A stretch of DNA of 64,000 nt from an uncultured Solirubrobacterales bacterium (GCA_963842005.1 CAWJEV010000002.1:981484-1045483); one strand, 5' to 3'; positions 36,544 through 57,417 are shown, counted from the first letter of the stretch. Numbers and translations are program-made. Notes: generated by a model not told the origin, from the sequence alone.

Positions 36544-36649
36544 CTGAGGCGGCCGTGGGCCAAGCGAGGCGAGGACGCAAGGAGCGAAGTGTGCTTGGCA
36601 CACGAGCGACTGAGGACAAGCATACGCGCAGTGCCCACGGCCGCCTCAG
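36544..36649. repeat. REP-like hairpin element (empty copy)
   Basis: 17-bp terminal inverted repeat CTGAGGCGGCCGTGGGC/GCCCACGGCCGCCTCAG around a core that matches the rejoined flanks of IS110-2 (55304-55332 plus 56882-56955). Inner hairpin GTGTGC-N3-GCACAC. Confidence 0.85.
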
Positions 36650-55230: not shown

Positions 55231-55456
55231 CGGCGGCTCATTATCCCACTGCGCGCGCTTGCGGCCGGGTTCGCCTGTCGTCCAGCGTCACGAACAACGC
55301 TTCTAGGGTGGTCGGTGAGCAAGCGAGGCAAGACCGTATGGGTCGTGTCGACCGATACGCGCGGTAGTGATGGTCGGCACCCCGCGCATGAGTGTGCGGG
55401 GACTGGGCTGGAGGGTGGCCCTCCGGCCGACACCCTGAGTCATGGGAGGTGCCGAC

Positions 55457-56545
55457 ATGCTGAACGATAGGACGATCGTGGGTCTGGATGTGCATGGGAC
55501 GGCGACGCAGGCCGCCGTGTTGGAGATCGCGACCGGCGAGCTGACGTTCCGGCGGGTCCAGGGACCCCCGAGCGAGGTTATGGGGTATCTGCGGGGGCTC
55601 CCGGGGAGGGTGCTCGCGACCTATGAGGCGGGTCCTATGGGGTATGGGCTCGCCCGGGCAGCCGCCGAGCTGGGGCTGGATGTCCGTGTCTGCGCGCCGG
55701 GTTCGATATTGCGTCGTCCGCATGAGCGGATCAAGACCGACCGTCGCGACGCGGAGCGCCTGGCGCGACTTTTGGCCGCGGGAGAGTTGTCCTTCGTGCG
55801 GGTACCGACCGTGCAGGAAGAGAGCTTCCGTGACCTCGCGCGTTGCCGGGAGGCCGCTCGTGGTGATCTGATGCGCGCCCGTCACCGCCTCGGGAAGCTC
55901 CTGTTGCGCCGCGACGTGCGTTTCGGTGGCCCGGGGAGCAACTGGACGCTCGCGCACTGGAAGTGGCTGAACCAGCTCGAGTTCGATGACGCGCCCTCCC
56001 GCGCGGTGCTCGCCGACTACCTGACCGGCGTCCGTGCGCTCGAACAACGCCGCTCCGCGCTGGACGCGGCGATCAAGAAGACGTGGGCTGAGAGCCCGTG
56101 GGCGCAGACGATCGCCAGGTTGCGCTGCATGCGGGGGATCAACTCGACTACCGCGTTCGGCTTGTGCGCCGAGATCGGCGACTTCCACCGCTTCAAGCAC
56201 CCCACCACCCTGACGTCCTATCTCGGGATCGTGCCGAGCGAGCGCTCCTCCGGCGAGCAGACCCGCCGCGGACCGATCACCAAGGCCGGCTCCCCGCACG
56301 CCCGCAGACTGCTCGTCGAGGCAGCCCACCACTACCGCCACACCCCCGCGATCGGGATGGCACTCACACGCCGCCAAGACGGCCAGGACCCCCGCGCGTG
56401 CGAGATCGCGTGGCGCGCCCAACACCGCCTGCACCACCAGTACCGGCGGCTGCGCCTGGAGCGCGGCAAGCCAGCGAACATCGTCACGATCGCGCTCGCA
56501 CGCGAGCTCGCCGCGTTCACCTGGGAGATCGGCCAACTGACCTGA
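55457..56545 (+). CDS. IS110-family DEDD recombinase/transposase
   Basis: GLDVH, YEAGPMG, KTDRRDA and PSERSSG motifs. Confidence 0.93.
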   Translation: MLNDRTIVGLDVHGTATQAAVLEIATGELTFRRVQGPPSEVMGYLRGLPGRVLATYEAGPMGYGLARAAAELGLDVRVCAPGSILRRPHERIKTDRRDAERLARLLAAGELSFVRVPTVQEESFRDLARCREAARGDLMRARHRLGKLLLRRDVRFGGPGSNWTLAHWKWLNQLEFDDAPSRAVLADYLTGVRALEQRRSALDAAIKKTWAESPWAQTIARLRCMRGINSTTAFGLCAEIGDFHRFKHPTTLTSYLGIVPSERSSGEQTRRGPITKAGSPHARRLLVEAAHHYRHTPAIGMALTRRQDGQDPRACEIAWRAQHRLHHQYRRLRLERGKPANIVTIALARELAAFTWEIGQLT

Positions 56546-56569
56546 ACACCAACCCACAACCACACCCCC

Positions 56570-56780
56570 CGACGGCAGCGGTGCTGTCGGGGCGACACGG
56601 GAACCACCGGGACCTGGCCTGTCGCGGCTAGCGGGCCCGCGCTGCGTCCTCGGGCAACCAGCACCCACCAGGTGCCGGCCGCGCCCGCCACAAGACTGCG
56701 CGCCCCGCGACGAATCGGCGGTCATGAGGTACCCAGCCCTCGCATATGAGGCTGAAACAGCACTCGACACGCCCAGACAC
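56570..56780 (+). ncRNA. Predicted bridge/seek RNA in the 3' non-coding end of IS110-2
   Basis: TGCGTCCT (56643-56650) and CAAG (56691-56694) match the target; CGGTC (56719-56723) and CATATGAG (56743-56750) match the donor junction. Boundaries are approximate. Confidence 0.72.
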
Positions 56781-56952
56781 CGCCCGTGACGCCCCGAGAA
56801 CACCACACGCCCCACCCCCTCACCCGCCAACACGCGGGCAACCCCAGCCTGCCCACTTGACAAACCAACCCCCCATATGAGGACGCAAGGAGCGAAGTGT
56901 GCTCTGCACACGAGCGACCGAGGACGCAGCATCGCGCAGCTCAGCGGCCACC

Positions 56953-57417
56953 CTACGCGACTTCGGCGGGCTCGTCCTTGCCCTGCAGACGCTCGCGGCC
57001 TCGCTGCACTGCGGCGATGAACTTCGAGAGGTTCACCTCGAGCGTGTTGAGGATCTCGTCCGCGTAGTCCTCCGCCCCGAGGCGGATCTCGCGCTCGCGT
57101 GCGCGGGCGTCCTCGATGATGTCCTCCGCCGCGCGCTCAGCCTGCTTGGTGACCTCCTCGTCGCCCACCAGCCGCTCCTGGCGCTCGCGCGCCTCCTTGA
57201 CGATTTTCTCGGCCTCGCGCTTGGCCTCGGCCAGCATCTCCTGGCGCTCCTTGACGATCCACCGCGCCTGCTTGATCTCCTCGGGGATCGTCGCGCGCAT
57301 CTGGTCGAGGATGTCGTAGATCTCCTCCTTGTCGACCCGCACCTGGTCGGTCAGGGGCACCGGCTTGGCGTTGTGCACCAGGTCGTCGAGCTTGTCAATC
57401 AGAACTAGGACATCCAT
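56953..57417 (-). CDS. Conserved coiled-coil protein downstream of coaD (often annotated ATPase subunit-like or DivIVA-like)
   Basis: MDVLVLIDKLDDLVHNAKPVPLTDQVRVD.. with a charged coiled coil. Function unknown. Confidence 0.75.
   Translation of the reverse strand: MDVLVLIDKLDDLVHNAKPVPLTDQVRVDKEEIYDILDQMRATIPEEIKQARWIVKERQEMLAEAKREAEKIVKEARERQERLVGDEEVTKQAERAAEDIIEDARAREREIRLGAEDYADEILNTLEVNLSKFIAAVQRGRERLQGKDEPAEVA

What the first reader, a model, noticed from the sequence alone, without database searches (positions are those of the whole stretch)
55304..56955. IS110-2 is inserted in the hairpin repeat, the empty target is in the same window, and the bridge RNA explains the choice
Seen: the flanks rejoin as CAAGCGAGGCA-AG-GACGCAAGG, and the empty copy reads CAAGCGAGGCG-AG-GACGCAAGG (36561-36582), fixing the core as AG with no target duplication. 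The 3' non-coding end has TGCGTCCT (perfect 8-nt complement of AGGACGCA), then a CGGGC/GCCCG stem, then CAAG (matching GCAAG of the occupied site but not GCGAG of the empty one), followed by the donor guides CGGTC and CATATGAG. Established: IS621 and some IS1111 members target REP-type repeats via RNA guides. Inference: a new IS/repeat pairing, with a one-base guide mismatch that may explain why the 36.5-kb copy is unoccupied.
Basis: partly seen in the sequence, partly recalled or inferred. Interest (0 to 1): 0.85.

Follow-up and report, generated by a model that had tools for sequence, protein, structure and literature searches.

The report
RNA-guided IS110 element in hairpin repeat
This is an ordinary but very clean example of an IS110/IS1111-type insertion sequence whose own 3' non-coding RNA carries short guides that match the 10-base site (CA-AG-GACGCA) it occupies inside a hairpin repeat; the idea that a single A/G difference explains one empty repeat copy is not needed, because most perfectly matching copies are empty too.

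Summary
A 1549-bp IS110-family element (window 55333-56881, counting one AG core) sits in a ~105-nt hairpin repeat. The flanks rejoin without duplication, and an empty copy lies at 36544-36649.

The genome has four 100%-identical copies, all at the same position of the same repeat. The 3' non-coding end carries four guides:
- TGCGTCCT, the complement of core plus right target.
- CAAG, the left target plus core.
- CGGTC, the complement of the left IS end.
- CATATGAG, the right IS end plus core.

These lie in two internal loops of a structure with compensatory changes. In about 19 related IS with other targets the same RNA positions change with the flanks (0 of 20,000 permutations reach the observed fit). 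The mechanism reading is therefore well supported, though RNA expression was not testable.

The "one-base mismatch explains the empty copy" part is weak. CA-AG-GACGCA is the majority form, and 22 of 26 perfect-match repeat copies are empty. The -1 base is nevertheless guide-read, and none of 59 xG-AG-GACGCA sites is occupied.

The closest named relatives are ISSso6 and ISEc45 (IS1111 group, bridge RNA in the right end). This is a new member of a known kind, of modest interest.

The parts
55304..55330 (+). Left part of the occupied hairpin repeat: the variable outer arm TAGGGTGGTCGGTGAGC, then CAAGCGAGGCA. The left target bases read by the guide are C55329 and A55330.
55331..55332 (+). Left copy of the AG core dinucleotide.
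   Evidence: AG is the only sequence shared by both junctions in all 4 copies and in the paralogs.
55333..56879 (+). IS body. It totals 1549 bp with one core. The left end is ACCGTATGGG and the right end is CCCCCCATATG. The short subterminal inverted repeat is TATGGG (55337-42) / CCCATA (56872-77).
   Evidence: four copies in the genome, 100% identical.
55442..56545 (+). DEDD/IS110-family RNA-guided transposase, 367 aa. The probable true start is the ATG at 55457, behind the GGGAGG ribosome-binding site. It carries the DEDD residues and the GIVPSERSSG Ser motif.
   Evidence: PF01548, PF02371; NF033542, 209 bits; 42% identical to ISSso6
56580..56804 (+). Predicted bridge/seekRNA module, enclosed by a 22-nt basal stem (56580-56601 with 56783-56804).
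   Evidence: the basal stem is present, with different sequence, in most relatives. Searches give the inner structure.
56643..56650 (+). Right target guide TGCGTCCT, on the 5' side of the target-binding internal loop. It is complementary to the top strand of AG+GACGCA.
   Evidence: 74/114 positions complementary in 19 IS versus 30 expected; 0 of 20,000 permutations reach this.
56651..56687 (+). Inner stem-loop of the target loop: CGGGC/GCCCG plus CCAGCACC/GGTGCCGG.
   Evidence: helices 2-3, with compensatory changes.
56691..56696 (+). Left target guide CAAG (same sequence as left target CA + core AG), followed by AC (the first two bases of the IS left end).
   Evidence: -1/-2 match in 26 of 26 positions; 4 of 20,000 permutations reach this. 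-3/-4 are not significant.
56719..56723 (+). Right donor guide CGGTC, complementary to GACCG of the left IS end.
   Evidence: it covaries with the left end (ACCG/ACCC/ACGG) in paralogs and relatives.
56725..56742 (+). Stem-loop of the donor loop: UGAGG/CCUCG.
   Evidence: helix 4, with A-U versus C-G covariation in 16 of 32 sequences.
56743..56751 (+). Left donor guide CATATGAG(G), the same sequence as the right IS end plus core.
   Evidence: 78/80 positions equal versus 57 expected; 0 of 20,000 permutations reach this.
56857..56862 (+). TTGACA box, conserved 13-14 nt before the right-end CCATA in all relatives. It may be the -35 of a circle-junction promoter or a recombinase site; its function is not shown.
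   Evidence: No sigma-70-type promoter is called in the linear form.
56880..56881 (+). Right copy of the AG core.
56882..56955 (+). Right part of the occupied repeat. The right target is GACGCA (56882-7). A second, unused CG-AG-GACGCA site lies at 56919-56928. The outer arm ends at CCACCCTA.
36544..36649 (+). Empty copy of the repeat in the window. Its site CG-AG-GACGCA at 36570-36579 has the minority G at -1.

Best explanation
IS110-2 is an active-looking member of the IS1111 group of the IS110 family, in the ISSso6/ISEc45 clade.

Its DEDD recombinase works with a non-coding RNA encoded in the right, 3' non-coding end. The RNA has two internal loops.
[quoted passage not shown] - Donor loop: CGGTC and CATATGAG read the abutted IS ends (..CATATG-AG-ACCG..) in the same way.

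Recombination at the AG core inserts the circular IS into CA-AG-GACGCA without duplication. That 10-nt word lies in the conserved internal loop of a REP-like hairpin repeat, so the IS accumulates there.

Shown here: the anatomy, the copies and sites, the covariation of guides with flanks, and structure covariation. Inferred from the family: RNA expression, the circle intermediate and catalysis.
For: - Family: PF01548 + PF02371; NF033542 'IS110 family RNA-guided transposase', 209 bits against a 140-bit cut-off.
- Copies: four copies 100% identical over 1549 bp, all at the same site and orientation of the same repeat.
- Relatives: orthologues at 87-92% aa in related Solirubrobacterales MAGs occupy the same site in 19 of 20 readable copies. 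One of these lies in a non-repeat CACACA-AG-GACGCA site.
- Paralogs: two paralogs in this genome (IS110-1 and 'B') and about 17 other IS found with covariance model R1 carry different guides at the same RNA columns, matching their own flanks and ends.
- Permutation tests: RTG/right target 74/114 versus 30±4.9 (0 of 20,000); LDG/right end 78/80 versus 57 (0 of 20,000); LTG -1/-2 26/26 versus 19.5 (4 of 20,000).
- Structure: 95.5% of cells paired, and 11 of 18 pairs show changes on both sides. A basal stem encloses the module in most relatives.
- Guide conservation: a 68%-identical IS in another family of the order keeps the same RTG/LTG and sits in the same repeat.
- Guide order and RNA location: top-strand match 5' of the bottom-strand match, RNA downstream of tnp. 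This is what Siddiquee et al. 2024 (PMC11187229) describe for IS1111-type IS.
- Named relatives: ISSso6 and ISEc45 are listed 'RE / IS1111' in Durrant et al. 2024, and R1 hits the ISSso6 3' end at 34.6 bits.
Against: - No expression or circle-junction evidence is available.
- Rfam has no matching family, and phmmer finds no solved structure.
- The left target guide reads only 2 bases beyond the core, and -3/-4 show no signal.
- A few single-copy relatives fit their right flank poorly (L047, L041, L032).
- The subterminal inverted repeat is only about 6 bp, shorter than the 11-13 bp typical of IS1111 members.
- The alignment used for the pair counts was fitted to the model.
Confidence: 0.9

Rival explanations
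1. One reading: the 36.5-kb copy is empty because its G at -1 (CG-AG instead of CA-AG) mismatches the CAAG guide.
For: - The -1/-2 bases of the left target always equal the guide in 13 IS species.
- All 4 copies here and 19 of 20 in relatives have CA at -2/-1.
- 0 of 59 xG-AG-GACGCA sites in the genome are occupied, including the second site in the right arm of every repeat, against 4 of 35 CA sites. Fisher-type p is about 0.017.
Against: - CA-AG-GACGCA is the majority form.
- 22 of 26 perfect-match repeat copies and 9 of 9 perfect non-repeat sites are also empty, so an empty copy is expected about 85% of the time whatever the variant.
- With only two G-variant first-site copies in the genome, occupancy cannot discriminate between the readings.
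- One degraded relative (L024) sits at CC-AG, so -1 may not be absolute.
Confidence: 0.25
2. Target choice also needs the hairpin context (structure-gated recognition, as reported for ISPpu10), and not only the 10-nt RNA match.
For: - All 4 insertions here are in repeats, while 0 of 9 perfect non-repeat sites are used.
- The site lies in the conserved, apparently unpaired internal loop of a long hairpin.
- The preprint 10.64898/2026.03.19.712850 reports a target 5' stem-loop requirement for ISPpu10.
Against: - 4 of 26 against 0 of 9 is not significant (p about 0.29).
- A relative inserted into a non-repeat site with the same 10-mer, inside what looks like another transposase gene (L005/L014).
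Confidence: 0.25
3. The guide matches are coincidental, and the transposase recognises the repeat by protein-DNA contacts alone.
For: The 4-5-nt matches (CAAG, CGGTC) are individually expected by chance.
Against: - Permutation tests across about 19 IS.
- Guides are conserved at 68% protein identity while the surrounding stems change compensatorily.
- The 8-mer is expected 0.005 times in the non-coding end.
Confidence: 0.02

Closest known systems
ISSso6 / ISEc45 clade (IS1111 group of the IS110 family; bridge RNA predicted in the right end by Durrant et al. 2024)
   Same: - Full-length transposase homology: 42% to ISSso6 and 35.5% to ISEc45.
- The long non-coding end lies downstream of tnp.
- Covariance model R1 matches the ISSso6 3' end (34.6 bits, E 4.5e-9) and weakly that of ISEc45.
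   Different: - Different phylum (Actinomycetota, Solirubrobacterales-like).
- Different guides and target.
- I did not determine the ISSso6 targets and ends.
ISPa11, ISEc11, ISKpn4, ISPst6 (IS1111 family; seekRNA shown experimentally, Siddiquee et al. 2024, PMC11187229)
   Same: - RNA encoded downstream of tnp.
- Top-strand match 5' of the bottom-strand match.
- No target duplication.
- ISPa11 targets REP repeats.
- Guides are kept between diverged transposases that share a target (ISKpn4/ISPa25; compare this IS with its 68%-identical G133 relative).
   Different: - The subterminal inverted repeat here is about 6 bp (TATGGG), against 11-13 bp.
- The spacer across the circle junction is 8 nt, against 10.
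- The transposase is 362-367 aa, against 330-350.
- No experimental data exist for this element.
IS621 (IS110 group; bridge RNA, Durrant et al. 2024, PMC11208160)
   Same: - Two internal loops: one reads the target and one reads the donor.
[quoted passage not shown] - It inserts in REP elements.
   Different: - In IS621 the RNA is in the left end, and the 5' side reads the bottom strand (LTG first). Here the RNA is in the right end, and the 5' side reads the top strand (RTG first).
- The core is CT in IS621 and AG here.
- The proteins are too distant for phmmer.
ISPpu9 / ISPpu10 of Pseudomonas putida (IS110 family in REP sequences)
   Same: Multiple copies sit at one position of a palindromic intergenic repeat, leaving many repeat copies empty.
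   Different: - ISPpu10 is reported to need a target stem-loop as well as RNA match (preprint). That requirement is not shown here, and one relative's non-repeat insertion argues against a strict need.
- ISPpu9 carries an sRNA passenger.

Membership tests
IS110 family (sensu lato) RNA-guided DEDD transposases | Transposase with an N-terminal DEDD/RuvC-like domain and the C-terminal PF02371 domain with the Ser-Gly motif | tested here: met
   - PF01548 (36 bits, cut-off 29) and PF02371 (71.9 bits, cut-off 21.3).
- NF033542, 209 bits against a 140-bit cut-off.
- D16, E62, D100 and D103 and GIVPSERSSG are read from the translation.
IS110 family (sensu lato) RNA-guided DEDD transposases | Site- and orientation-specific insertion with no target duplication beyond a shared core dinucleotide | tested here: met
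   Four copies here and about 20 in relatives sit at the same site and orientation; only AG is shared by the junctions.
IS110 family (sensu lato) RNA-guided DEDD transposases | A non-coding end encodes a structured RNA whose loops are complementary to the target and to the IS ends | tested here: met
   Guides covary with flanks and ends; structure covariation. Transcription itself was not tested.
IS110 family (sensu lato) RNA-guided DEDD transposases | Circular intermediate with abutted ends; the RNA binds the recombinase | not testable with these tools
IS1111 group | Long non-coding region / bridge RNA downstream of tnp (right end) | tested here: met
   The 5' non-coding end is about 110-125 nt and the 3' non-coding end is 335 nt; the RNA module is at 56580-56804.
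IS1111 group | In the RNA, the top-strand match precedes the bottom-strand match (Siddiquee et al. 2024) | tested here: met
   TGCGTCCT (complement of the top strand) at 56643-50 lies 5' of CAAG (same as the top strand) at 56691-4. The donor guides follow the same order.
IS1111 group | Subterminal inverted repeats, usually 11-13 bp (7-17 bp), with 6-7 bp left and 3 bp right terminal extensions | tested here: inconclusive
   - Only TATGGG/CCCATA (6 bp; 6-7 bp in the paralogs) pairs perfectly.
- A second imperfect block, TGTCGA/TTGACA, follows.
- The extensions are 4 nt (left) and 2 nt (right) plus the 2-nt core.
IS1111 group | Transposase clusters with IS1111-group members | tested here: inconclusive
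   - The best named hits, ISSso6 (42%) and ISEc45 (35.5%), are labelled IS1111 / RE in Durrant 2024 supplementary file 8.
- No tree with IS1111 and IS110 reference sets was built.

The most novel reading that the evidence does not exclude
The hairpin repeat may not be a mere REP-like landing pad. It may be a conserved structured RNA or DNA element of Solirubrobacterales.
- Its core is present at 1-3 copies in 12 genera.
- Its arms start at stop codons.
- Its helix looks rich in tandem G·A pairs.

On this reading the IS reads the element's invariant internal loop. The element has expanded to 8-35 copies only in the genomes that also host this IS. IS and repeat would then expand together: either the IS persists only where targets are many, or its recombinase helps to spread the repeat.
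Probability: 0.15. Interest if true: 0.5.

Novelty: new member of a known kind. Interest (0 to 1): 0.3.

Why it matters
It adds a well-documented natural case of RNA-guided (bridge/seekRNA) insertion from an uncultured actinobacterial lineage. About 20 related elements with differing guides give a small natural "reprogramming" series for the ISSso6-like clade:
- AG core.
- Six right-target bases read beyond the core.
- Only two left-target bases read.
- A basal stem around the RNA module.

This could help to define guide rules for IS1111-type recombinases, and it explains why this IS piles up in one repeat. It does not reveal a new mechanism.

Tried and rejected
- **Alternative boundaries.** A GA core gives a rejoined site 2 nt too long. 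A no-core junction (..GGC|AAGACC.. and ..CATAT|GAGG..) reproduces the window's G-type empty copy exactly. I rejected it because the A form, CA-AG-GACGCA, is the common empty form in the genome.
- **Rfam.** Searched at E ≤ 1 over the IS and over the empty repeat; only chance miRNA-like hits.
- **Solved structures.** phmmer against PDB sequences found no hit.
- **Promoter scan.** No sigma-70-type promoter is called in the linear IS. I could not find a convincing -10 at 16-18 nt from the conserved TTGACA across the predicted circle junction, so I make no promoter claim.
- **'Handshake' reading of the AC after CAAG.** Not testable, because the left end is nearly invariant (AGAC), and some relatives have AGAG in the RNA.
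- **Outer helix closing the donor loop (CGACG/CGUCG).** It is present in most relatives but weak in this IS. I left it out of the model.
- **Searches not spent.** I did not run the large protein searches, structure prediction or the metagenome scan, because they would not change the verdict.

Full report
**What is there**

The window is C2:981484-1045483 of a 4.46-Mb, 70% G+C genome in 6 contigs. Its closest relatives in public genomes are Solirubrobacterales MAGs.

At 55304-56955 a hairpin repeat is split by a 1549-bp element.
- The left flank ends ..CAAGCGAGGCA (55320-55330), followed by AG (55331-2). The IS then starts ACCGTATGGG.
- The IS ends ..CCCCCCATATG (to 56879), followed by AG (56880-1). 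The flank resumes GACGCAAGGAGCG...
- The single ORF (55442-56545; probable start at 55457, behind GGGAGG) hits PF01548 and PF02371.
- It also hits NCBIfam NF033542 'IS110 family RNA-guided transposase' at 209 bits.

Only AG is common to both junctions. The core is therefore AG, with no duplication.

**Copies and sites**

BLAST against the whole genome finds four copies: C2:871607, C2:1036816 (the window copy), C5:386274 and C5:519445.
- They are 100% identical over 1549 bp.
- All lie in the same orientation at the same position of the same repeat family.
- Their left flanks are GAGGCA, GATGCA, GAGGCA and CAGACA.
- Their right flanks are GACGCA + AAGG/CCGA/GTGA.

Everything upstream of CA varies among the occupied sites.

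nhmmer finds about 34 repeat copies. Most empty copies read CA-AG-GACGCA, the same word as the occupied ones. The G form of the window's empty copy is rare: two copies.

Genome-wide, all AGGACGCA sites break down as follows.

| Site | Total | Occupied | Empty, in repeats | Empty, outside repeats |
|---|---|---|---|---|
| CA-AG-GACGCA | 35 | 4 (all in repeats) | 22 | 9 |
| xG-AG-GACGCA | 59 | 0 | 23 | 36 |

The 23 xG sites inside repeats are mostly a second site in the right arm of each repeat, for example 56919-56928.

Occupancy is therefore sparse. An empty copy needs no special explanation. The absence of insertions at G(-1) sites is nevertheless consistent with -1 being read.

**Relatives**

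Orthologues at 87-92% aa occur in several Solirubrobacterales MAGs, with up to about 9 copies per genome.
- 19 of 20 readable left junctions are ..CA-AG-ACCG.
- All but one right junction are AG-GACGCA, again inside the repeat.
- The exceptions are a CC-AG junction in a degraded copy (L024) and an AG-ACCGCA right flank (L016).
- One insertion (L005/L014) lies in a non-repeat CACACA-AG-GACGCATCC, within what reads like the end of another transposase gene. The hairpin is therefore not strictly required.

**The RNA**

The 335-nt 3' non-coding end carries the following elements.

| Element | Position |
|---|---|
| TGCGTCCT | 56643-50 |
| Stem CGGGC/GCCCG | 56651-5 / 56683-7 |
| CAAG(AC) | 56691-6 |
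| Conserved GACGAA | – |
| CGGTC | 56719-23 |
| Stem UGAGG/CCUCG | 56725-42 |
| CATATGAG(G) | 56743-51 |

Two paralogs at 66-67% nt identity in the same genome have other ends and flanks, and the matching changes at the same RNA places.
- IS110-1 lies at window ~21000-22430, minus strand.
- 'B' lies at C2:88868-90215.

| Feature | This IS | IS110-1 | 'B' |
|---|---|---|---|
| RTG | TGCGTCCT | TGGCCCT | CGGACT |
| Right flank | AGGACGCA | AGGGCCc | AGTgCG |
| LTG | CAAG | TTAG | TCTAG |
| RDG | CGGTC | CGGTC | GGGTCT |
| Left end | ACCG | ACCG | ACCC |
| LDG | CATATGAG | CATAAGAG | CATATCAG |

The same holds for a 45% relative (L019) and a 40% relative in Rhizobium mongolense (L021).

I built covariance model R1 from eight sequences.
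- It found the module in 25 of 151 genomes of the order.
- It gave 11 hits in this genome, which I read as at least four distinct IS types (extra hits).

On the 33-sequence alignment, 95.5% of pair cells are standard pairs. Eleven of 18 pairs show changes on both sides, far above the shuffled and slid controls. One caveat applies: the alignment was fitted to the model.

A 22-nt basal stem (56580-601 with 56783-804) encloses the whole module. It recurs with unrelated sequence in most relatives.

**Guide-flank tests across distinct IS (permuting flanks among IS)**

| Comparison | Observed | Expected | Permutations reaching observed |
|---|---|---|---|
| RTG versus the six bases after the core | 74/114 complementary | 30±4.9 | 0 of 20,000 |
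| LDG versus the right end | 78/80 | 57 | 0 of 20,000 |
| LTG versus left target, -1/-2 | 26/26 | 19.5 | 4 of 20,000 |
| LTG versus left target, -3/-4 | 7/26 | 4.2 | not significant |

The site code of IS110-2 is therefore CA-AG-GACGCA, 10 nt.

A 68%-identical IS in another family of the order (G133, three copies) keeps TGCGTCCT and CAAG. Its stems change compensatorily, and it sits in the same repeat.

**Comparison with known systems**

- In IS621 the RNA is in the left end. [quoted passage not shown]
- Siddiquee et al. (PMC11187229) show that IS1111-type IS encode the seekRNA downstream of tnp, with the top-strand match first. That is the layout here.
- The best named protein relatives are ISSso6 (42%) and ISEc45 (35.5%).
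- Both are listed 'RE / IS1111' in Durrant's supplementary table.
- R1 matches the ISSso6 3' end.
- REP or hairpin targeting is established for IS621, ISPa11, ISPpu9 and ISPpu10.
- The subterminal inverted repeat here is short (TATGGG), so that IS1111 criterion is only weakly met.

**Verdict**

The mechanism reading is well supported by comparison: an RNA-guided IS110/IS1111-type element whose guides specify the site in the repeat.

The A/G point is mechanistically reasonable, since -1 is a guide-read base. It is not needed to explain one empty copy among 22 empty perfect ones.

This is a new member of a known kind.

Noticed in passing
window 36544-36649; about 34 copies in the genome (e.g. 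C4:148777, C2:1315914): The target repeat is a ~105-nt hairpin with a conserved core: GCAAGC-N5-CAAGGACGCA-NN-GAGCGA-A-GUGUGC-loop-GCACAC-GAGCGA-NN-GAGGACGC-N5-GCGC.
- Its 14-17-bp outer arms differ completely between copies yet stay complementary, and often start at a stop codon.
- The NN and N5 positions covary.
- GAGCGA faces GAGCGA, which could form tandem G·A pairs.
- There is no Rfam match.
- The core motif occurs in 19 of 151 genomes (12 genera) of the order, at 1-3 copies in most, but 21 in this genome and 8 in G133. Those are the two sampled genomes that also carry this IS.
   Followed up: partly
e.g. C2:762859-762959, C2:1058803-1058897; window ~22140-22235 (next to IS110-1): A second repeat family of about 95 nt (GGCCGAAACGGGGAC..GGAGACACTCGC..CCCGGCTTCGGTC) has about 30 copies. 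Copies are sometimes nested in one another and sit inside the loop or right arm of the first repeat (C5:885588, C2:1915796, C6:140543). An intact copy lies about 70 nt upstream of IS110-1.
   Followed up: no
window ~20970-22466 (minus strand): IS110-1 is a 67%-identical paralog with junctions GAAGTT-AG-ACCGTATGG and CCATAAG-AG-GGCCCACG. Its own guides are TGGCCCT, TTAG, CGGTC and CATAAGAG, at homologous RNA positions. It is single-copy and not inside a repeat.
   Followed up: partly
G000 C2:167741, C2:575937, C6:132382, C2:1224978, C2:2456151: A further IS type of the same clade has five copies. Two of them have the target-binding loop replaced by a duplicated GTAAACGATGTGCTGGCGGC segment and sit in unrelated flanks. 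This may be a natural loss or rewrite of the target guide.
   Followed up: no
L044 (G134:C6:229260-229396 and flanks): A relative's right junction reads CCATATG-GG-CGAC, while its donor guide says ATATGAG and its target guide ends GCC. This may be an insertion at a GG rather than an AG core.
   Followed up: no
L005 and L014 (MAG MFD02671.bin.3.195): An orthologue of IS110-2 is inserted in CACACA-AG-GACGCATCC, within a sequence translating to ..FYNNDRVHHGRLTQGRIPADIV... That looks like the C-terminus of another (rve-type) transposase present on two contigs. This recalls ISEc21 targeting IS3-family genes.
   Followed up: no
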